A stretch of DNA of 52,697 nucleotides, from contig CP064982.1 in NCBI GenBank assembly GCA_016699595.1, forward strand, positions 709,118-761,814. Reading direction: 5' to 3'. Source of the DNA: a bacterium (GTDB lineage: Bacteria; Patescibacteriota; Dojkabacteria; GCA-016699595). Both the position numbers and the translations under genes were made by a program. The stretch's first letter is position 1, and each line of letters starts with the position of its first letter. A model generated the notes under the pieces. It made no database searches and was not told the origin of the DNA. It saw nothing but the letters and a program-made list of their open reading frames with translations. Shown here in pieces: positions 4,908 through 48,644 of the stretch.

Positions 4908-6668
4908 ATGAAGTTTTCTGTTTTTGCACAAAAGCTATCTAAACTAGAAGGAATGTCTTCTAGAACTTTGATATCTACAGAGTATTCGAGGTTGATTGGT
5001 CTTTGTAGTTCAAAAGAAGAAGTTTATATGGCTGTTACAATGACTACAGGAAGAATTTCGCCAAAATATAGTTCATTGGAGTTCAACTTTGCGCAAAAGC
5101 AACTACTTAAAACTTTACAGCATATTTATTTAGATATCGAAGAAAAGTATAAAGATGTTGGTGATATAGGCTCAGCTATAGAAACTTCAAGAGAGACTGG
5201 AAGTATATATGGTGAAAATTTGGGGCAAGGAACGGATTTACAATCCATGTTTGAAGAGTTATATACTTTTGCGAGTATAACTGGGCCGGGTTCAAATGAG
5301 AGAAAGGCAAAAATGCTTCTTCGGATGCTATTAAGAGAAGATAATGTTAGCCGAAAATGGATTACGAGGATAATTTTAGGGAGTATGCGACTAGGGCTTT
5401 CGGAAAAGGGGATAATTGATGCCATTTCTATTTACCTGGTAGGTGATAAAAATTGCTCTGAATCTATCGAGAAAGCAGTAGGTGTCAGGTCTGATATTGC
5501 AGAGATCGCAGCTCTCACATATGACTGGAAATCGGAGTTGTCATTAGAGGAAATAAAAGCTAATTTATCGTTACTGAAAGTAAAACTATTTACTCCTGTA
5601 GCTTCAAAGCTCGTAGAAAGGGTTAAGGATGAGCTAGAAGTAATAGAGAGAATGAAGGTCTGTTTTGTGCAACCAAAGTTTGACGGTTTGAGAATACAAG
5701 CTCACTTCAATGTTGATAGAGTAGAATTTTACTCAAGAAACATGGAGAATAATACTGCTGCGTATCCAGATCTGGTAGATGCATTGAAAAGTTTCGCAAA
5801 ACTAAATGGCTTGGAATCGGCAATCTTTGATGGAGAAGTTGTAGGTTATGATCAAGTCTCCGGTAAGCCACTGCCATTTCAAGATACTTCAAAGCGAAGA
5901 CGTAAATCCAGTAATGAAGAGAGAACTTCGGAAATCCCGGTGGTATATAATGTTTTTGATGTTCTTTTTGAAAATGGGGTAGATATGACCGCAAGTCCAA
6001 TAGAAGAAAGGCTCTTAAAATTAAGAAGTTATTCTTGGACAGCAAGTATTCTACTTACACAAACGGACAAAGTCTCTGAGACAGAAAGTTTACGACAACT
6101 ATTTGACCGATACGTTCGGATAGAGGGACAAGAAGGAGTTATTGCCAAAAAGTTATCCACGCCCTATGATCCGGGCACTAGAAACTTTGATTGGGTGAAG
6201 TTAAAAAGATCTGCAGATTCAAATTTAAACGACTCTACGGACTTGTTGGTATTGGGATACTATTTAGGCAAGGGCAAAAGAGCAGGCATAGGAATTGGAG
6301 GTATTTTATGTGGAACTTATGACAAAGATACCCAAAAGTTCTATACGGTATGTAAAGTCGGAACTGGATTTAGTGACGAGCAATTGAGAATGTATCTAGT
6401 AGAACTAGACGCACTTGTTTCAGCCAAGCAATACAATCAAGAAAATTCTGAAATTGCTATGAGTTTACAAGATGGTCTTGTAACAGTAGAACCCAAAATA
6501 GTTGTCGAAATAGAAGCTGATGAAATAACTGCCTCAGAACTGCATAGTGCGAAATACTCTCTTAGATTTCCAAGGATCAAAAATTGGAATAGAGACAAGA
6601 GTTTTGAACAAGTAACAACAATAAAAGAGCTGAAAAGGATGTTTGAGATACGAAAGGGTGTAGTCTAA
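4908..6668 (+). CDS. lig: ATP-dependent DNA ligase with N-terminal DNA-binding domain
   Basis: Motif I QPKFDGLR, IFDGEVV, YNVFD, EGVIAK, WVKLK, GKR, VGTGFSD and LRFPR (OB fold). Confidence 0.93.
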   Translation: MKFSVFAQKLSKLEGMSSRTLISTEYSRLIGLCSSKEEVYMAVTMTTGRISPKYSSLEFNFAQKQLLKTLQHIYLDIEEKYKDVGDIGSAIETSRETGSIYGENLGQGTDLQSMFEELYTFASITGPGSNERKAKMLLRMLLREDNVSRKWITRIILGSMRLGLSEKGIIDAISIYLVGDKNCSESIEKAVGVRSDIAEIAALTYDWKSELSLEEIKANLSLLKVKLFTPVASKLVERVKDELEVIERMKVCFVQPKFDGLRIQAHFNVDRVEFYSRNMENNTAAYPDLVDALKSFAKLNGLESAIFDGEVVGYDQVSGKPLPFQDTSKRRRKSSNEERTSEIPVVYNVFDVLFENGVDMTASPIEERLLKLRSYSWTASILLTQTDKVSETESLRQLFDRYVRIEGQEGVIAKKLSTPYDPGTRNFDWVKLKRSADSNLNDSTDLLVLGYYLGKGKRAGIGIGGILCGTYDKDTQKFYTVCKVGTGFSDEQLRMYLVELDALVSAKQYNQENSEIAMSLQDGLVTVEPKIVVEIEADEITASELHSAKYSLRFPRIKNWNRDKSFEQVTTIKELKRMFEIRKGVV

Positions 6669-6765
6669 TCGAAACTTCGTTTTACTGATAACTTCTAACT
6701 GATACTAGGCTTGTAAAAAAGGAAAAATGTAGTAAAATACTACTAAACTGCCGATTTAATATAAA

Positions 6766-7413
6766 TTGTATCCAAATTATAACCAAAACTCTTTTCCTCC
6801 ATTAGGTAACTTCAATCCCCAACCTGCTCCACCGTACTATGTTCCTCAGTCCCAAAACTTGAATAATCTGGATAACTTCTCTGGTTATCAACGTTATCAA
6901 CCATCCCCACCTCAAGTATCAGCAAATCAAGCTTCAAGTCAACAAAAGTTGCAAGAAGATGTTTCCAAAAAGAAAGACAAAATTATCAGTTGGTACAAAC
7001 TTATATTTGGCAGGATACCTTCTGAATCTGATCTCTCTACATTGCTCCAGTCAAAGTTACCAGAAATTGAAATAGTAAAAAAAATGCTTTCTGATAGCGA
7101 GCATCTTGAAGTATTGAATGCAAGAAATGAAATCATAAATAGTAGAATTGAAAATGAACGGCTAAAAAAGGAAATGGAGGATATGCAACTGAAACAAGTA
7201 GATTTAGAAAACACAAACAAAGGTTGGGAAGAATTGGTAGCTGATAAATCGAATGAAATAAGAGAACTTGATCAACAAATTCAAAACTTTAATTTAGAGC
7301 TTGAGAAAGCAAGAAACAAAATTATTCGACTTGAAGAGGCATTCAATAGTAAGTTTTCAACTAAAATAAAAAACACATTTGATCGGATTGTTGACAAAAT
7401 TGTCGACAGATAA
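6766..7413 (+). CDS. Hypothetical protein with N/Q/P/Y/S-rich N-terminus and long coiled coil
   Basis: 215 aa ORF with a low-complexity first ~65 aa and heptad-rich aa ~110-195. A promoter-like TTGTAA-16-TAAAAT lies at 6711-6738. Confidence 0.7.
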   Translation: MYPNYNQNSFPPLGNFNPQPAPPYYVPQSQNLNNLDNFSGYQRYQPSPPQVSANQASSQQKLQEDVSKKKDKIISWYKLIFGRIPSESDLSTLLQSKLPEIEIVKKMLSDSEHLEVLNARNEIINSRIENERLKKEMEDMQLKQVDLENTNKGWEELVADKSNEIRELDQQIQNFNLELEKARNKIIRLEEAFNSKFSTKIKNTFDRIVDKIVDR

Positions 7414-7430
7414 ATCTTCGTAATAAAATA

Positions 7431-7459
7431 TTGATAAACTCTCAATGTTTTATTATAAT
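7431..7459 (+). promoter_or_regulatory. Sigma70-type promoter for tRNA-Ile(UAU)-rel
   Basis: TTGATA-17 bp-TATAAT ending 9 nt before the tRNA. Confidence 0.8.
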
Positions 7460-7468
7460 ACTCAAACA

Positions 7469-7542
7469 GGGCGTATAGTTCAGTCGGTTAGAACGCGGTT
7501 CTTATAAAGCCGAAGTCCATGGTTCGAGTCCATGTACGCCCA
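7469..7542 (+). tRNA. tRNA-Ile (anticodon TAT)
   Basis: Full cloverleaf: acceptor GGGCGTA/TACGCCC, discriminator A, anticodon arm CGGTT-CTTATAA-AGCCG, T arm CATGG-TTCGAGT-CCATG. Confidence 0.93.
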
Positions 7543-7572
7543 GTTCTTACAGAAATTATCTCAGTTACAGTT

Positions 7573-9063
7573 ATGAAAAACGAAATAAAGATAAAGTTAG
7601 ATACCTCTACTATTTTTCATTTTTCTGAATTAGAATCTTTGATTCAATCCTCAGGTTTAGAATATGACTTATCTGCAATACAGAAAGCCTATCTTTTTGC
7701 TGCTGAGAAGCACTTCGGCCAAACTAGAATGGATGGTACTCCCTATGTATCTCATTTACTTACTGTCTCAAAGTACTTGGTAGAATTGGGTATGGATACC
7801 ACTTCAGTTATAGCTGGGTTACTTCATGACACTGTTGAAGATTGTGGCGTTTTGCTAGATGAGCTTGAATTGGAATTTGGTATAGAGATAGCCTATATTG
7901 TTGACGGTTTGACAAATGTGCACAATCTTGAAGATCGTACAAAGTATGACGATCTTGAGAATTTTCAAAAGATGATATTGAAGTCGGTTGATGATATTCG
8001 CATAATTATTATCAAATTATGTGACAAACTTCATAACTTATCAAATATGAGTACTTATAGTGAAGAAAAGAAAATAAAATCTGCTGAAAATGTCAAAGCT
8101 TTGTGGGAACCGATATCTGAATACTTAGGTCTGTTTTTGATAAAAAGAGAATATCAAGATATTTGTTTCAACATCTTAGACAAGGAAAATTACCTGAAGG
8201 TACAAGGTGAATATGATATGTATGTAGAAAAGCACTTAACTGATGCGAAAAACTTACAGACTGACATAGTCGAATTACTAAATGAATATAAACTTGAGGG
8301 TTTCAAAGTAGACTTCAGGGTTAAGTCTATAGGAAGTTTCTATGACAAGGTGGCAAGAAAAGCAGGAGACAAACAAGTGCAAAATCAATTTGAATTGGTT
8401 CCTGATATATTTGCTTATAGGATACTTGTTCATAATGTCGAGATGTGTTACGAGGTATTATCGCTCATTTCTGCTAAATTTAAACTGAAGGTAGAGGAGT
8501 ATGATGATTATATAGCCAAGCCTAAGAAGAGCGGATACAAATCACTGCATACGGTTGTTCTACCAAAGGAGGATTTACAAGTTGAGATTCAAATCAAGAC
8601 TTACGAAATGCATGATTACAATGAATATGGACCTGCTTCTCACATAGCTTATAAAAACGGAGGTAAAGATTATTCTTGGGTTCGCAGCTTACAAGACTAT
8701 ACCGTTATACAAAAAACGGAGACTGATTCTAGTAGCTATAAAGAAAATGTATTTAAGGGAAAAGTTTTTGTATTTACACCAGAATACAATGTAAAAGTCC
8801 TTAGTGAAGGTTCTGTCCCAATTGACTTTGCCTATGAAGTTCATACAGAGGTTGGGGACAGTTATGCAGGGGCTAAGGTGAATGGAAAGATAGTTTCTGC
8901 AGATTATACATTGAAAACAGGTGATATAGTCGAAATCTTGACAAGCAAAAACAGACTTGCTCCGAGTCTTGATATATTGAAACATGCCAGAATGTCTGAA
9001 ACAAAATCGAGAATTAGAAGGGCAAGAAACAGAGTGAACAGTCTTAACCATGAAAATCTATAG
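7573..9063 (+). CDS. rel: RelA/SpoT homologue (HD hydrolase + synthetase + TGS, no ACT domain)
   Basis: H.GQTR.DG.PY..H, LHDTVED, KLCDKLHN, RVKS, DIFAYRI, GYKSLH, EIQIKT, DFAYEVHTEVG. Start moved to ATG 7573 because the track start lies inside the tRNA. Confidence 0.92.
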   Translation: MKNEIKIKLDTSTIFHFSELESLIQSSGLEYDLSAIQKAYLFAAEKHFGQTRMDGTPYVSHLLTVSKYLVELGMDTTSVIAGLLHDTVEDCGVLLDELELEFGIEIAYIVDGLTNVHNLEDRTKYDDLENFQKMILKSVDDIRIIIIKLCDKLHNLSNMSTYSEEKKIKSAENVKALWEPISEYLGLFLIKREYQDICFNILDKENYLKVQGEYDMYVEKHLTDAKNLQTDIVELLNEYKLEGFKVDFRVKSIGSFYDKVARKAGDKQVQNQFELVPDIFAYRILVHNVEMCYEVLSLISAKFKLKVEEYDDYIAKPKKSGYKSLHTVVLPKEDLQVEIQIKTYEMHDYNEYGPASHIAYKNGGKDYSWVRSLQDYTVIQKTETDSSSYKENVFKGKVFVFTPEYNVKVLSEGSVPIDFAYEVHTEVGDSYAGAKVNGKIVSADYTLKTGDIVEILTSKNRLAPSLDILKHARMSETKSRIRRARNRVNSLNHENL

Positions 9064-9081
9064 AATAATTGAGTCTTATGA

Positions 9082-9966
9082 TTAGAAATTCTCGATTAGT
9101 TTACTTAAGAATTCTCTATACATATCACCGAATTCAGGGTTATTAAGTCCAAATTCGGTGATAGTCTTTAGGTATTCAAATTTATCGCCTGTATCAAAGT
9201 ATTTCCCATTTTCAATAACTACAGTATACAAAGGCACACCTTTTTTGTGGAGTAAGTTTATTGCATCAACCAGCCAAACCTCATCACCTTTGCCTGGTGC
9301 GATATCTCTTAGTGCCTCAAAAATCTCTGGAGGTAGTATATATGCACCATGAGTAGCGATATTTGATGGTGCCAAATTAGGATCTGGTTTCTCGATTATG
9401 TTTAGTATTTCATAAATATTGCTTTCTAAGTTTCTTACTTCAGCAATTCCATACTTTCTTAGGTTTTCTTTCTCAAGAATTTCAACTCCAGAGATGATAA
9501 TGCCTCCGTATTTTTCATATACATTTATCATTTGAGCAAGCCTAGGTGGTTTTGAATAGATGAATTCATCTCCCCAAAGAACTGCAAAAGGTTCGTTCCC
9601 AATGACATGTTCAGCATTCAAAACTGGAGTGCCATTTCCATATTTCCCCTTTTGCCTTATGTATATGAAGTTTGCAAGCTCTGCAATTCGAGTTACATTG
9701 TCAAGATGGTCAAATTTGTGACTACTAATTAGCAAGTTTACAAGCTCTTGTGAAGGAGCATCAAAATGATCTTCAATTGCTCGCTTATTGGCCCCAGTCA
9801 CAATAACTATATCTTCTATTCCCGAAGACACTATTTCTTCTACCACATACTGAATAATTGGTTTATCAATCACAGGCATCATTTCTTTGGGAGATGCTTT
9901 TGTTTGAGGTAGAAATCTTGTACCTAAGCCTGCTGCAGGAATAACTGCTTTTCTAATTTTGTTCAT
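9082..9966 (-). CDS. galU: UTP--glucose-1-phosphate uridylyltransferase
   Basis: KAVIPAAGLGTRFLPQTKASPKEMMP..DKP, KRAIEDHFD, EKP and YFDTG. Confidence 0.95.
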   Translation of the reverse strand: MNKIRKAVIPAAGLGTRFLPQTKASPKEMMPVIDKPIIQYVVEEIVSSGIEDIVIVTGANKRAIEDHFDAPSQELVNLLISSHKFDHLDNVTRIAELANFIYIRQKGKYGNGTPVLNAEHVIGNEPFAVLWGDEFIYSKPPRLAQMINVYEKYGGIIISGVEILEKENLRKYGIAEVRNLESNIYEILNIIEKPDPNLAPSNIATHGAYILPPEIFEALRDIAPGKGDEVWLVDAINLLHKKGVPLYTVVIENGKYFDTGDKFEYLKTITEFGLNNPEFGDMYREFLSKLIENF

Positions 9967-14017: not shown

Positions 14018-15526
<1,509 letters not shown>

Positions 15527-15653
15527 TAAGGAGTTCTGAAAATCTATACACGAAATAGATATTGTTGTACAATTTGCTTGAATTCTCAAGCATCACTCAG
15601 AAGATCTTTAGCACTTTTAAGAATTGAAAGTTATACTGTATGAGGATATTCCA

Positions 15654-15727
15654 GGGCGTGTAGCTCAGGTGGTTAGAGCGCAGTCCTGATAAGACTGAGG
15701 TCCCAGGTTCGAGCCCTGGCACGCCCA
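15654..15727 (+). tRNA. tRNA-Ile (anticodon GAT)
   Basis: GGGCGTG/CACGCCC acceptor and CAGTC-CTGATAA-GACTG anticodon arm. Confidence 0.97.
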
Positions 15728-15742
15728 TTTTGATGATAACTA

Positions 15743-15815
15743 GGGCCCTTAGCTTAGTTGGTAGAGCACCTCATTTGCAATGAGGGGGTCAAGAGTTCGA
15801 ATCTCTTAGGGTCCA
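15743..15815 (+). tRNA. tRNA-Ala (anticodon TGC)
   Basis: GGGCCCT/AGGGTCC acceptor with G3-U70 and CCTCA-TTTGCAA-TGAGG anticodon arm. Confidence 0.97.
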
Positions 15816-15936
15816 TTTCAAAATTTAATAGTTCAAAAAGTTTTTAAGTGCAGTAGAGTTTTCGAATGAGTAAGATGATTTTCTAACTTGTTGGAGAATT
15901 GGGTTGCAATTTATTGCGATTCTTTTGTCTTACTCA

Positions 15937-16052
15937 TTCGGTGACTTTATCGCAGTGGCACCACCTGATCCCATCCCGAACTCAGAAGTGAAACACTGTT
16001 GAGCCGACAATACTTTTTCCTTTGGGATTGTGGAAGATAGGTAGTCGCCGAA
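15937..16052 (+). rRNA. rrf: 5S rRNA (located between 16S and 23S)
   Basis: About 116 nt with terminal helix TTCGGTGAC/GTCGCCGAA and the 5S hallmark CACCTGATCCCATCCCGAACTCAGAAGTGAAA. Confidence 0.95.
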
Positions 16053-16297
16053 TTTCATTCTATAGCATTTGAGTTTCTTGAATGCTATTTATGAAATTTC
16101 GATTTCATAATACGGAGTAGGGTTAATTTCTTTCGAGTGGTTAACCCAATTCCAATGTTCTTTGAAAATTAAATAGAAGGCACAGTTATTACAAAATCTA
16201 GACTAGGATTGAAAAATTCAAAGTTGTGGAATTTGTAATAAATAAAAATTTAATGTTCAATATTTGAATATTATTTTGTTAGGTAATTTTCATCATT

Positions 16298-19352
<3,055 letters not shown>

Positions 19353-19402
19353 AAATGGTGAAATTGCCTGTGCCTTCTATTTAGTTTTCAAAACAAGAAT
19401 TT

Positions 19403-45691: not shown

Positions 45692-47221
45692 ATGCAAAAT
45701 TTTTCGAAATTACAACATAAATCAAACAAGAAAAAGGCAATAATAATAGGTTCTGGCTTTGGTGGTTTAGCAATAGCTATAAGACTTCAGGCATTAGGGT
45801 TTCAAACTGAAATATTTGAAAAAAATGAAATGATAGGTGGGCATGCTAGTCAGATCAAAAAAGAAGGATTTACTTTTGATATGGGACCATCTATAGTCAC
45901 TATACCTTTTACTATCCAAGAACTATTTGGACTGAATGGTGAAGACATGAATGATTATTTGCAAATGTCATCACTTGATCCACTTTATAGGATATATTTC
46001 CACGACAAAAGTTATATAGATTACACTGGGAATGCTGATCAGATGAAGGCACAAATCTCGAAGTTTAATGAAAAAGATGCAAAGAACTATGATAAGTTTA
46101 TGAAATTATCATCATCTATATATAAAATAGTAATTGAAGACGGATTGGGAAGCAAACCGTTTTCAAGTTTGTGGGATTTTTTGAAATTCGCCCCTCGTGC
46201 GATAAAGCTTAAAGCAGTGCTACCTGGCTACTTTCTTGTTTCCAGATACTTCAAAGATTTTCGAACGCGCTTCCTTTTTTCGTTTCACCCATTGTTCATA
46301 GGAGGAAATCCATTTACTACTCCATCGATATTTCTTATGTTGCCATACCTAGAGAAGCTTGGCGGAGTGTGGTATGCAACAGGTGGCATGTATAAAATTA
46401 TAGAAGAATTGGGGAAACTTTATACAAGGATGGGCGGCAAAATTCATTTAAATTCTGAAGTAACAGAAATTCTAATAGAGAACGGATGTGCAATCGGTGT
46501 CAAAGTGCATAATGAGGAAATGCTCTCAGATATTGTCGTTTCAAACTCACACTTTGCAAATACATACATGGATTTAATTCCTGAGACAAAAAGGCAAAAA
46601 TGGCCCAACAAAAAAATACTTAATAAACAATATAGCATGAGTTGTTTTTTAATTTACCTCGGGATAAGTGAAAGATACGATAAATTCAAACACCATACAC
46701 TTATACTTTCAGAAAGATATAAGGAACTTGTTACGGATTTGTTTGACAAAACTGTTTTACCTGATGATTTTTCTATGTATATTCACACTCCATCAAAAAC
46801 TGATGAAACGATGGCTCCAGCAGGTTGTGATAGTGTTTACATACTTATACCGACTCCAAATCTGAATGCTGATGTGAATTGGGATAAATACAAAGATACT
46901 TATGCGAAAAAGATTATTGACTTTCTGGAAAGTGATTTTGGGTTGAAGGATTTATCAAAAAATGTAAAAGTAAAAGAGATTTTTACACCTCTGGATTTTC
47001 AAAGAAAAAGGAATAACTTTTTAGGAGCTCCGTGGAGTTTACAACCTTCATTGTTTCAAATAGCATCATTTAGACCACATAATAAGTCTGAGGATATAAA
47101 TGGTCTTTATCTCGTTGGTGCTAGTACTCATCCAGGAGGTGGAGTACCAGGTGTATTACTCGGTGCTAAAGCTACAGAGGCTGTTATAGCTAAAGACTTT
47201 GGATTATTTTTTATAAAATAA
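45692..47221 (+). CDS. crtI: Phytoene desaturase-family carotenoid oxidoreductase (CrtI/CrtN/CrtD-like)
   Basis: IIGSGFGGLA.AIRL, FDMGPSI, GGNPF, GGVWY..GG, FRPHNK and YLVGASTHPGGGVPGV. Confidence 0.9.
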   Translation: MQNFSKLQHKSNKKKAIIIGSGFGGLAIAIRLQALGFQTEIFEKNEMIGGHASQIKKEGFTFDMGPSIVTIPFTIQELFGLNGEDMNDYLQMSSLDPLYRIYFHDKSYIDYTGNADQMKAQISKFNEKDAKNYDKFMKLSSSIYKIVIEDGLGSKPFSSLWDFLKFAPRAIKLKAVLPGYFLVSRYFKDFRTRFLFSFHPLFIGGNPFTTPSIFLMLPYLEKLGGVWYATGGMYKIIEELGKLYTRMGGKIHLNSEVTEILIENGCAIGVKVHNEEMLSDIVVSNSHFANTYMDLIPETKRQKWPNKKILNKQYSMSCFLIYLGISERYDKFKHHTLILSERYKELVTDLFDKTVLPDDFSMYIHTPSKTDETMAPAGCDSVYILIPTPNLNADVNWDKYKDTYAKKIIDFLESDFGLKDLSKNVKVKEIFTPLDFQRKRNNFLGAPWSLQPSLFQIASFRPHNKSEDINGLYLVGASTHPGGGVPGVLLGAKATEAVIAKDFGLFFIK

Positions 47222-47225
47222 ATAT

Positions 47226-48644
47226 ATGTTAAGTATAGTCATACCTGCATATAATGAAGAAAGTATAATAACTGAAACGATAACAAATGTTAAAGAAGTA
47301 CTTTTAGCAATTGATCAAAATTTCGAAATAATTGTAGTTGACAACAACTCAACTGACAATACTTCAGACTTAGCAAAGTCATTAGGCGCAAAGGTGTTTT
47401 TTGAGCCTGAAAATAGTATTGCAAAAGCTAGAAACATGGGCACGAAACATGCAAGTGGAGATATATTGATTTTCATTGATGCAGATAGCAAATTAAGCAA
47501 GAAGCTTGTTTTACAAAGCCTATTGGCACTAGATGAAGGTCTTATAGCAGTAAGTGCTATATCATCATTAGATAAATACCCTTCACTTATTAGTTTTGGT
47601 ATTTGGTTGTATAATCTAATCTCAATTGTTTTCAAAATAGGTATAGGCCAATTTATAATGATCCGAAAAAAGGATTTTGATGTCATAGGAGGTTTTGACG
47701 AAACATATTATGCATTCGAAGAGTTAGAGTTTTTCAAGCAGCTAAAACTGAAATATAGTCGAAGGAGCTTTAAAGTATTGACAATACCAGTAGAAACAAG
47801 TAGTCGCAAGTTTGAGAAGGGTAAAACAGATACCACTAAGTTTTTGTTATTATTACTCGCATATTTCAAAAATCCCAAAGTAGGTCAAGATAAGAAGCAA
47901 CTGGATTTCTGGTACAAAAGATCAGATGTACAAAACTCAAGGTTTTCCAGATATAGAAAATGGTTAGTTGTCTTTTTTATGTTTTTATTTTGGTCAAATA
48001 CTGCATTATTAAAGACCAATAATCAGATCCTTGAATATTCTTTTCTAATTACTCCCATAATATTTTTCATAATGCTATTTGTGATAATTCAAGACAAGTC
48101 GAAAATCAAAGACTTCTTGTTGATGTTCCTTATTACAATGATTATAGAAATAGTTGGTGTTAAGACAGGTTTCCCATTTGGTCGTTATCTCTATGATCCT
48201 GCATATGCAAGTATAGGAATAGGTGAAGTTCCTATATTTATTGGATTTGCATGGTATATATTGATTGTAGGTATATCCAAAGTAACTGCTAGTCGGGTAC
48301 TATCTGCTATATATATTGTAATTCTTGATCTTATACTTGAGGTGTTTGCAGTAGAAATGGGTATTTGGACTTGGACACAAAGGTATAATAACATATTATA
48401 TGCTCCGATATGGAACTATATATCTTGGGGAATTATTGCTTTTCTATTGTACCCAATAGCAAAGAAGCAAGGTACTGATATTTTTATTATGGCTTTTCTA
48501 CTTGTGGTAATCATTGGTTATTTTTCAAGCAGCTTGATAATTTTGGGACAACCTATAATTGCCATCTTTGGTTATATGTTTTGTATAGTTTTAGTCATAA
48601 CTGCTATCAAGACAGGGGTTAATGAAATTGCTAATATATGTTGA
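47226..48644 (+). CDS. GT2 glycosyltransferase fused to CruF-like carotenoid biosynthesis (Caroten_synth) domain
   Basis: N-terminal SIVIPAYNEE, VVDNNSTD, ARN.G and FIDAD. C-terminal EIVGVKTGFPFGRYLY, VPIFIGFAW, DLILE.FAV..G.W.W and P.WNYISW. Confidence 0.85.
   Translation: MLSIVIPAYNEESIITETITNVKEVLLAIDQNFEIIVVDNNSTDNTSDLAKSLGAKVFFEPENSIAKARNMGTKHASGDILIFIDADSKLSKKLVLQSLLALDEGLIAVSAISSLDKYPSLISFGIWLYNLISIVFKIGIGQFIMIRKKDFDVIGGFDETYYAFEELEFFKQLKLKYSRRSFKVLTIPVETSSRKFEKGKTDTTKFLLLLLAYFKNPKVGQDKKQLDFWYKRSDVQNSRFSRYRKWLVVFFMFLFWSNTALLKTNNQILEYSFLITPIIFFIMLFVIIQDKSKIKDFLLMFLITMIIEIVGVKTGFPFGRYLYDPAYASIGIGEVPIFIGFAWYILIVGISKVTASRVLSAIYIVILDLILEVFAVEMGIWTWTQRYNNILYAPIWNYISWGIIAFLLYPIAKKQGTDIFIMAFLLVVIIGYFSSSLIILGQPIIAIFGYMFCIVLVITAIKTGVNEIANIC

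What the first reader, a model, noticed from the sequence alone, without database searches (positions are those of the whole stretch)
7469..7542. tRNA-Ile with a UAU anticodon: probable TilS-independent AUA decoding
The anticodon TAT is at 7503-7505 in an intact cloverleaf with its own strong promoter. The acceptor stem (GGGCGT./.ACGCCC, A73) is almost identical to the window's tRNA-Ile(GAU), suggesting origin by duplication rather than from tRNA-Ile(CAU). Nearly all bacteria read AUA with lysidine-modified tRNA(CAU) made by TilS. Mycoplasma mobile is the classic exception using UAU. ATA codons are frequent in these AT-rich ORFs, so the tRNA is likely needed, and misreading of AUG must somehow be avoided.
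Basis: partly seen in the sequence, partly recalled or inferred. Interest (0 to 1): 0.7.

Follow-up and report, generated by a model that had tools for sequence, protein, structure and literature searches.

The report
AUA-reading isoleucine tRNA (UAU) in CPR
This is a real, conserved isoleucine tRNA whose encoded UAU anticodon reads the very common AUA codon directly; textbooks call this rare in bacteria, but it is typical of the ultra-small CPR/Patescibacteria bacteria this genome belongs to, and I could not test whether the usual lysidine enzyme TilS is missing here.

Summary
The tRNA-Ile(TAT) gene at 7469-7542 is real. ARAGORN and Rfam (69.5 bits) both call it, and the cloverleaf is regular.

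- **Not an assembly error.** Contigs from six independent metagenome runs carry the identical gene, while the flanks differ at 10 sites.
- **Conserved in the lineage.** The nearest non-conspecific relative (RelA 54% identical, same ligase-unknown-tRNA-relA neighbourhood) keeps TAT. Its anticodon arm is identical and all six stem changes are compensatory.
- **Common in CPR.** A strict 74-nt backbone pattern with TAT hit at least 120 species genomes before the scan was cut off; 77 carry CPR labels. The family shows strong covariation.
- **AUA is needed and means Ile.** ATA makes up 43% of Ile codons in the window and aligns with Ile/Leu/Val in homologues.

So this is the lineage-typical AUA decoder, not a rarity.

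The key interpretive claim, TilS independence, could not be tested. The tRNA body resembles tRNA-Ile(GAU), but the paralogy is old, not a recent duplication.

Verdict: a new member of a known kind (Mycoplasma mobile-type AUA decoding), of moderate interest.

The parts
7469..7542 (+). tRNA-Ile(UAU) gene, 74 nt, A73, no encoded CCA
   Evidence: ARAGORN. Rfam RF00005, 69.5 bits. Identical in contigs of six DNA runs. Orthologue in L201. Family covariation.
7503..7505 (+). anticodon TAT (positions 34-36) within the loop CTTATAA (7501-7507)
   Evidence: Read from the sequence. Unchanged in six runs and in the syntenic relative L201.
7431..7459 (+). sigma-70-like promoter candidate TTGATA-17 nt-TATAAT, ending 9 nt before the tRNA 5' end
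   Evidence: Consensus scan gives 11 of 12 matches, the best site in 6500-9500. The overall site count does not exceed the shuffles. Two of the strain SNPs (7434, 7442) fall inside it. Function is inferred only.
7573..9063 (+). relA/spoT-like (p)ppGpp synthetase/hydrolase gene, 30 nt downstream, with no terminator-like site between it and the tRNA. It is a context gene, not part of the decoder.
   Evidence: Pfam HD_4 + RelA_SpoT + TGS. No terminator found. mRNA contigs in X20 and X21. Gene callers start it at 7519, inside the tRNA (P0001, 514 aa).
15654..15727 (+). tRNA-Ile(GAU), the paralogue that reads AUU/AUC, in the rRNA operon. It shares the acceptor stem (6 of 7 pairs), A73 and D-arm type with the UAU tRNA.
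   Evidence: ARAGORN. Rfam 68.9 bits. 56/74 identity.

Best explanation
The gene encodes the functional minor isoleucine tRNA of this CPR/Patescibacteria bacterium.

**Shown**
- The tRNA gene is intact and conserved, and lineage relatives share it.
- AUA is used as an Ile codon, and heavily (37 per 1000 codons).

**Inferred**
- It is transcribed from its own sigma-70-like promoter and given its CCA end post-transcriptionally.
- It is charged by the same IleRS that charges tRNA-Ile(GAU), because both share A73, C4:G69, U12:A23 and the A37-A38 loop context.
- It is not a MetRS substrate, because it has U34 rather than C34.
- Its UAU anticodon pairs directly with AUA.
- It is the sole or main AUA reader, so lysidine (TilS plus tRNA-Ile2(CAU)) is not needed, as in Mycoplasma mobile.
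- AUG misreading is held down by competition from tRNA-Met(CAU), and by a property of the ribosome or an unknown U34 state.

It is an old, vertically inherited feature of the lineage, not a recent invention of this genome.
For: - **Gene quality:**
- **Independent assemblies:** the tRNA is identical in six DNA runs. There are 0 changes in its 74 nt against 10 in the 327 flanking nt.
- **Unbiased orthologue:** L201 was found through RelA (54% identity), not through the anticodon. It has the same order ligase (53%) - unknown (45%) - tRNA - relA. It keeps TAT and an identical anticodon arm. Six stem differences form three compensatory pairs, and two further differences lie in the D loop.
- **Family:** at least 120 species genomes match the backbone with TAT, 77 with CPR labels. 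There are 97 distinct sequences; 99.6% of cells are paired; 12 of 21 pairs show changes on both sides; the covariation score is 0.527 against 0.126 in shuffles and at most 0.094 in slid controls.
- **Codon need and meaning:** ATA is 43% of Ile codons. At 19 ATA sites in RelA, 80 homologues show I/L/V in 64% of cells. One site is invariant Ile (80/80). Met is the top residue at only one site.
- **Consistent with no lysidine system, weakly:** no TilS or PP-loop ORF in the window. No CAT tRNA in the window. No PP-loop ORF in 850 kb around the CPR tRNA-Ile(UAU) genes, including 10 loci with at least 1.8 kb upstream of ftsH, where tilS usually sits (the usual tilS position is from my own knowledge).
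- **Precedent:** the M. mobile system (PMC3575796).
Against: - The window is only about 52.7 kb of a genome of at least 685 kb.
- Some bacteria carry both tilS and tRNA-Ile(TAT), for example Lactobacillus casei and Cyanothece. Presence of the tRNA therefore does not prove loss of lysidine.
- No RNA evidence for the tRNA itself.
- The U34 modification state, charging and AUG discrimination are all inferred.
- Zero SNPs in 74 nt at the flank rate is expected by chance about 10% of the time, so strain-level conservation alone is weak.
- The family search fixed TAT and 43 other positions. It says nothing about how often CAT occurs on this backbone.
Confidence: 0.7

Rival explanations
1. Redundant decoder. 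The genome also keeps tilS and tRNA-Ile2(CAU), and the UAU tRNA only supplements lysidine-dependent reading of a very frequent AUA codon. This would match Lactobacillus casei/plantarum, Cyanothece and Ferrimonas.
For: Taniguchi et al. list bacteria that have both tilS and a tRNA-Ile(TAT) gene. Only about 8% of the genome was visible to me. Earlier scan notes say a minority of CPR keep a short TilS (an unchecked lead).
Against: No TilS or PP-loop gene and no CAT tRNA in the window. The only CAT tRNAs noted elsewhere in this genome are an adjacent initiator/elongator Met pair (note e1-360297; an unchecked lead). In other CPR loci the CAT tRNAs next to tRNA-Ile(UAU) are initiator and elongator Met types.
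Confidence: 0.22
2. Recent derivative of tRNA-Ile(GAU). On this reading the gene is a young duplicate of the window's GAU gene with a G34-to-T change, like the Bacillus subtilis tilS suppressor.
For: The two share 6 of 7 acceptor pairs, A73 and the D-arm type, and are 56/74 identical. The B. subtilis suppressor is a precedent.
Against: The UAU tRNA is closer to UAU tRNAs of other CPR classes (up to 64/74) and to its syntenic orthologue in a relative with about 50% protein identity (66/74) than to its own GAU paralogue (56/74). Its anticodon and T stems differ from the GAU gene at most positions. The split therefore predates this lineage.
Confidence: 0.05
3. Artefact or dead gene. The TAT would be an assembly or sequencing error for CAT or GAT, or the gene would be an unexpressed pseudogene or the cargo of a mobile element.
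For: No RNA coverage of the tRNA in the metatranscriptome contigs.
Against: Six independent runs give the same letters. The orthologue and the family show compensatory changes with a constant anticodon loop. The neighbours are core genes (DNA ligase, relA, rRNA operon) in conserved synteny, with no integrase. Short structured tRNAs are normally missing from RNA-seq contigs, so one search is uninformative.
Confidence: 0.02

Closest known systems
Mycoplasma mobile tRNA-Ile2(UAU) system (Taniguchi et al. 2013, PMC3575796)
   Same: Both have a genomically encoded UAU anticodon on a bacterial tRNA-Ile that reads AUA, in a small AT-rich genome with frequent AUA. The proposed logic is the same: IleRS accepts U34, MetRS does not, and AUG misreading is limited by the ribosome and by competition.
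   Different: In M. mobile the loss of tilS, the unmodified U34, the IleRS Arg865 determinant and ribosomal AUA/AUG discrimination were all shown experimentally. None of these could be tested here. The paper proposes that the M. mobile gene derives from tRNA-Ile2(CAU). The CPR gene has a tRNA-Ile1(GAU)-like body and is shared by many CPR classes, not by a single species.
Bifidobacterium and Neorickettsia: tilS-less bacteria with tRNA-Ile(TAT) and a eukaryote-type (type 2) IleRS (PMC3575796, discussion)
   Same: A tRNA-Ile(UAU) that serves as the AUA reader across a whole clade, not a single species.
   Different: Earlier scan notes propose a type-2 IleRS for CPR, but I did not test that.
Bacillus subtilis tilS suppressor: tRNA-Ile1 with a G34-to-U change (Fabret et al. 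2011, as cited in PMC3575796; Koehrer et al. 2014, PMC3919564)
   Same: A UAU anticodon on a tRNA-Ile1(GAU)-type body is enough to read AUA without lysidine.
   Different: That is a laboratory point mutant of one rRNA-operon tRNA copy. Here the gene is an old, separately located and separately promoted paralogue.
Lactobacillus casei/plantarum, Cyanothece and Ferrimonas: tRNA-Ile(TAT) together with tilS (PMC3575796)
   Same: A genomic tRNA-Ile(TAT) is present.
   Different: Those genomes keep tilS. Whether this genome does is unknown.
Eukaryotic cytoplasmic tRNA-Ile(UAU) with pseudouridine at positions 34 and 36
   Same: A UAU-type anticodon dedicated to AUA.
   Different: It is a eukaryotic tRNA with known Psi34/Psi36 modification and an intron. 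Nothing is known about modification here.

Membership tests
Bacterial tRNA (Rfam RF00005) of isoleucine type | Canonical cloverleaf scoring above the family threshold | tested here: met
   69.5 bits against a gathering score of 29. ARAGORN call. 21 of 21 stem pairs are standard, including one U-G.
Bacterial tRNA (Rfam RF00005) of isoleucine type | IleRS identity elements as recalled for E. coli tRNA-Ile (Nureki et al. 1994, from memory): A73, C4:G69, U12:A23, C29:G41, A35, U36, A37, A38 | tested here: inconclusive
   A73, C4:G69, U12:A23, A35, U36, A37 and A38 are present. Pair 29:41 is G:C, not C:G, but the window's own tRNA-Ile(GAU) has G29:C41 too. The lineage's IleRS rules are unknown.
Bacterial tRNA (Rfam RF00005) of isoleucine type | Structure maintained by selection (compensatory changes in orthologues) | tested here: met
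   L201 has three compensatory pairs and an identical anticodon arm. The family has 12 of 21 pairs with changes on both sides and 99.6% of cells paired. The family was selected with a pattern that fixes 44 columns, so only the free columns are informative.
TilS-independent AUA decoding (Mycoplasma mobile type) | Genomic tRNA-Ile with a UAU anticodon | tested here: met
TilS-independent AUA decoding (Mycoplasma mobile type) | No tilS gene in the genome | not testable with these tools
The window's proteins are not on record for contig look-up. Within the window there is no PF01171 hit in 40 ORFs and no SGGxDS motif in six frames.
TilS-independent AUA decoding (Mycoplasma mobile type) | No tRNA-Ile2(CAU); the only CAU tRNAs are initiator and elongator Met | tested here: inconclusive
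   No CAT tRNA among the 7 tRNAs of the window. An earlier first-reader note reports one adjacent initiator/elongator CAT pair elsewhere in the genome. There is no whole-genome census.
TilS-independent AUA decoding (Mycoplasma mobile type) | IleRS able to accept U34: Arg or Lys at the E. coli W905 / M. mobile R865 site, or a type-2 IleRS | not testable with these tools
   ileS lies outside the window and could not be fetched.
TilS-independent AUA decoding (Mycoplasma mobile type) | Unmodified U34, and ribosomal discrimination of AUA from AUG | not testable with these tools
   This needs tRNA mass spectrometry or tRNA-seq, and ribosome binding assays.
TilS-independent AUA decoding (Mycoplasma mobile type) | AUA used as an isoleucine codon | tested here: met
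   ATA is 37 per 1000 codons. ATA sites in RelA align with I/L/V in 64% of cells, and one site is invariant Ile.

The most novel reading that the evidence does not exclude
This gene is one more instance of a CPR-wide rule. Most Patescibacteria, a large share of bacterial diversity, would read AUA with a vertically inherited, tRNA-Ile1-like tRNA-Ile(UAU) and would have no lysidine system at all. If so, the published picture of TilS as near-universal and evolutionarily stable (98% of 1093 genomes, PMC6063277) and of tRNA-Ile(UAU) as 'rare cases' (PMC13752280, 2026) would be a sampling artefact of cultured bacteria. My data show that the tRNA is widespread: at least 120 species genomes from a truncated, strict scan. 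They do not show that TilS is absent.
Probability: 0.5. Interest if true: 0.7.

Novelty: new member of a known kind. Interest (0 to 1): 0.4.

Why it matters
AUA/AUG discrimination is a classic problem of the genetic code, and lysidine made by TilS is taught as the essential, nearly universal bacterial answer. A genomically encoded UAU reader used at 37 AUA codons per 1000, in a lineage where the same tRNA recurs across many classes, suggests that a lysidine-free solution may be a major bacterial regime and not a curiosity.

If so, three open questions can be asked in a much broader set of organisms than Mycoplasma mobile:
- How is AUG misreading avoided?
- What is the modification state of U34?
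- Which IleRS type charges the tRNA?

For this single window the finding is ordinary for its lineage. Its value is as one well-documented data point: conservation at strain level, at lineage level and across the CPR.

Tried and rejected
- **Contig look-up.** Exact look-up of two window proteins found nothing on record, so I could not walk along the genome.
- **Metagenome scan.** The metagenome-contig scan with RelA returned only distant homologues (39% identity or less) with no synteny. I used them only as an alignment panel for the ATA-codon test.
- **Other RelA relatives.** P0003, P0004 and P0015 (42-47% identity) show no synteny and no tRNA-Ile nearby.
- **RNA runs.** X20-X22 cover only relA, so there is no information on the tRNA.
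- **A second organism's tRNA.** A similar tRNA (6 differences) in X4, X7 and X8 could not be read, because the tool does not list letters for partial matches.
- **Lineage placement.** rRNA and protein comparison with the named loci gave only about 70% rRNA identity and scattered protein hits. The class within the CPR stays undetermined.
- **Literature.** No paper in the held library combines 'candidate phyla radiation' with lysidine. The Saccharibacteria + TilS hits all concern tumour-infiltrating lymphocytes.
- **Readings rejected:** assembly error, pseudogene, mobile-element cargo, and recent duplication of the GAU gene. See the rival explanations.

Full report
**Observation.** ARAGORN finds seven tRNA genes in the window. 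One is tRNA-Ile with anticodon tat at 7469-7542 on the + strand. Rfam's tRNA model scores it 69.5 bits (E = 3.5e-13, full model), as high as the window's other tRNAs. The sequence folds into a regular 74-nt cloverleaf:
- acceptor GGGCGTA/TACGCCC with A73;
- D stem GTTC/GAAC;
- anticodon stem CGGTT/AGCCG;
- loop CTTATAA, with TAT at 7503-7505;
- T arm CATGG-TTCGAGT-CCATG.

CCA is not encoded.

**Is the TAT real?** Logan contigs from six DNA runs in four studies (biofilm, bioanode and a named-organism sample) cover the gene. They belong to strains that differ from the window at 10 flanking positions: 7376, 7386, 7420, 7434, 7442, 7543, 7549, 7582, 7593 and 7636. None shows a difference inside 7469-7542. 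This rules out an assembly or sequencing error at the anticodon. As evidence of selection it is weak, because zero changes in 74 nt at the flank rate has a chance probability of about 0.1.

**Context.** The genome is CPR/Patescibacteria-like according to earlier notes on the same assembly. It has 35% G+C and lies on one piece of at least 685 kb.
- *Upstream:* an ATP-dependent DNA ligase and an unknown 215-aa protein.
- *Downstream:* 30 nt away, a short relA/spoT-type gene (HD_4, RelA_SpoT, TGS).
- *Promoter:* a promoter-like site, TTGATA-17-TATAAT (11/12), ends 9 nt before the tRNA. No terminator-like hairpin separates the tRNA from relA.
- *Caveat on the promoter:* this is the best site in the region, but AT-rich DNA gives as many sites in shuffles, so 'strong promoter' is plausible and not shown.
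- *Gene calling:* gene callers start relA at 7519, inside the tRNA (P0001 is 514 aa). ATG 7573 is the more likely start.

**Is AUA needed, and what does it mean?** In 41 ORFs, ATA occurs 515 times in 13,904 codons. That is 37 per 1000 and 43% of Ile codons. I aligned the window's RelA with 80 homologues.
- The 19 ATA positions align with Ile, Leu or Val in 64% of cells, with Ile the commonest residue.
- One site is Ile in 80 of 80 homologues, and another in 71 of 80.
- Met is the top residue at only one site.
- ATG positions align mainly with Met.

AUA is therefore read as a hydrophobic, Ile-like residue and not as Met.

**Conservation found without selecting on the anticodon.** A search of 5.8 billion proteins with RelA found a conspecific copy (99%). 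The next best hit was only 54% identical, so the lineage is sparsely sampled. That relative's contig (L201, NCBI GCA_040364335.1) keeps the neighbourhood ligase (53%) - unknown protein (45%) - tRNA - relA (54%).
- It carries a tRNA-Ile(tat) between the same genes, on the opposite strand.
- The two tRNAs are 66/74 identical. The whole anticodon arm and the unusual U11-A24 D-stem pair are the same.
- Six of the eight differences form three compensatory pairs (6:67, 49:65, 50:64). The other two are in the D loop.

This is the strongest evidence that the gene, anticodon included, is under purifying selection in this lineage. The inverted orientation in L201 also shows that co-transcription with relA is not a conserved feature.

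**Distribution.** I scanned one genome per prokaryotic species with a strict 74-nt pattern. It was the positions common to the window's two Ile tRNAs, with TAT fixed, 44 bases specified in all. By record title:
- 77 are CPR lineages (Saccharibacteria, Dojka-, Falkow-, Magasanik-, Uhr-, Peri-, Pacei-, Parcu-, Berkel-, Doudna-, Levy-, Morani-, Sung-, Yanofsky- and Nealsonbacteria, Minisyncoccales, 'Patescibacteria group');
- 25 are unnamed;
- 17 are labelled 'uncultured Gammaproteobacteria', from one co-assembly project, with CPR-type tRNA sequences and sub-megabase chromosomes, so the label is doubtful;
- 1 is labelled Clostridia.

The window's own species was not among them (best match 64/74). 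The 97 distinct sequences plus the window fit the cloverleaf in 99.6% of cells. All stem columns left free by the pattern covary: 12 of 21 pairs have changes on both sides, and the covariation score is 0.527 against 0.126 in shuffles and at most 0.094 in slid controls. Because the pattern fixed TAT, this shows that the UAU tRNA is common and functional in CPR. It does not show how often a CAT version exists.

**Origin.** The window's UAU and GAU genes share 6 of 7 acceptor pairs and are 56/74 identical. The GAU gene is almost as close to the CPR UAU family (mean 54.5) as the UAU gene itself (mean 57.7). The UAU family therefore has a tRNA-Ile1-like body. However, the UAU gene is closer to its orthologues (66/74 in L201, up to 64/74 in other classes) than to its paralogue. 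Any duplication is ancient, and shared IleRS identity elements could also explain the resemblance.

**The lysidine question.** What I can say is limited.
- The window has no Pfam TilS/ATP_bind_3 hit in 40 ORFs, no SGGxDS PP-loop motif in any of six frames and no CAT tRNA.
- An earlier first-reader note reports one adjacent initiator/elongator CAT pair elsewhere in this genome. That is an unchecked lead.
- In 850 kb around the CPR tRNA-Ile(UAU) genes there is no PP-loop ORF.
- The 28 nearby CAT tRNAs look like initiator (C1 mismatch) or elongator Met types.
- ftsH lies in 17 of the 120 blocks. Usually the tRNA is just downstream of it, or sits in an Ile(UAU)-fMet-Met-ftsH cluster. No PP-loop gene lies upstream of ftsH in the 10 blocks that include at least 1.8 kb there. 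From my own knowledge, tilS commonly lies in a tilS-hpt-ftsH arrangement.
- Several earlier agents of this scan reported that TilS is mostly absent in CPR and proposed a type-2 IleRS. I treat these as leads only.

**Literature.** Taniguchi et al. 2013 knew nine species in three clades that lack tilS and carry tRNA-Ile(TAT). For M. mobile they showed an unmodified U34, an IleRS Arg865 determinant and ribosomal AUA/AUG discrimination. They also list bacteria that have both tilS and the TAT gene. A 2018 survey found TilS in 98% of 1093 genomes and called it evolutionarily stable. A 2026 IleRS paper still speaks of 'rare cases' of tRNA-Ile(UAU). No paper in the held library links the CPR with lysidine.

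**Mechanism proposed.**
- *Shown:* an intact, conserved gene, and AUA used heavily as an Ile codon.
- *Inferred:* transcription from its own promoter, and post-transcriptional CCA addition.
- *Inferred:* charging by the IleRS that also charges tRNA-Ile(GAU), through the shared A73, C4:G69, U12:A23 and A37/A38.
- *Inferred:* rejection by MetRS, because C34 is absent.
- *Inferred:* direct U34-A pairing with AUA.
- *Inferred:* AUG misreading limited by tRNA-Met competition and by a ribosomal or U34-modification property, as in M. mobile.

I put about 0.9 on 'functional AUA decoder' and about 0.65-0.7 on 'no lysidine system in this genome'.

**Verdict.** The finding is real and correctly located, but it is lineage-typical. 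It is a new member of a known kind, and its most interesting claim remains untested. Interest 0.4.

Noticed in passing
window 14018-19353: The rRNA operon has an unusual gene order: 16S (14018-15526), tRNA-Ile(GAT), tRNA-Ala(TGC), 5S (15937-16053, Rfam 82.2 bits, full model), then 23S (16300-19353). No 5S follows the 23S. Contigs of conspecific strains in X1 and X2 span the tRNA-Ala-5S and 5S-23S junctions, so it is not an assembly artefact.
   Followed up: partly
window 7469-9063; L201 3624-5253: tRNA-Ile(UAU) sits directly upstream of a short relA/spoT gene with no terminator-like site between them. In the nearest relative the tRNA is at the same place but inverted, so the linkage is positional and not transcriptional. 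Gene callers start relA inside the tRNA gene (514-aa product).
   Followed up: partly
window 7573-9060 (RelA residues 358 and 468): Two of the 19 ATA codons in RelA lie where 78 of 80 and 54 of 55 homologues have Trp. These are probably lineage-specific substitutions in a divergent protein. I did not check them in closer relatives.
   Followed up: no
L034, L047, L059 and others among L001-L120: In several CPR genomes the three tRNAs of the AUR box, Ile(UAU), initiator Met and elongator Met, cluster immediately upstream of ftsH. In others the tRNA-Ile(UAU) lies just downstream of ftsH. ftsH is in 17 of the 120 8-kb blocks. That is the neighbourhood where tilS usually sits in other bacteria (from my own knowledge).
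   Followed up: partly
L086 (JAFUPS010000033.1, 1773-1846): A MAG labelled Clostridia, from roe-deer rectum, carries a tRNA-Ile(TAT) on the same 74-nt backbone. It may be a non-CPR carrier or a mislabelled or contaminating contig.
   Followed up: no
L004, L022, L037, L059, L088 (OZ246416.1) and 12 more: Seventeen records titled 'uncultured Gammaproteobacteria', all from one co-assembly project, carry CPR-type tRNA-Ile(UAU) sequences. One is an 886-kb complete chromosome. The taxonomic labels look wrong.
   Followed up: no
window 4908-6668 and 45692-48644: The window holds an ATP-dependent (archaeal/eukaryotic-type) DNA ligase. It also holds a carotenoid-like pair: an amine-oxidase/desaturase-like gene and a GT2-Caroten_synth fusion. 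Both are uncommon features for a small CPR genome.
   Followed up: no
window 7573-9060 versus the protein database: Apart from conspecific strains, the closest RelA among 5.8 billion proteins is only 54% identical. The lineage is very sparsely sampled, even though the species turns up in wastewater, activated-sludge, bioanode and biofilm metagenomes.
   Followed up: partly
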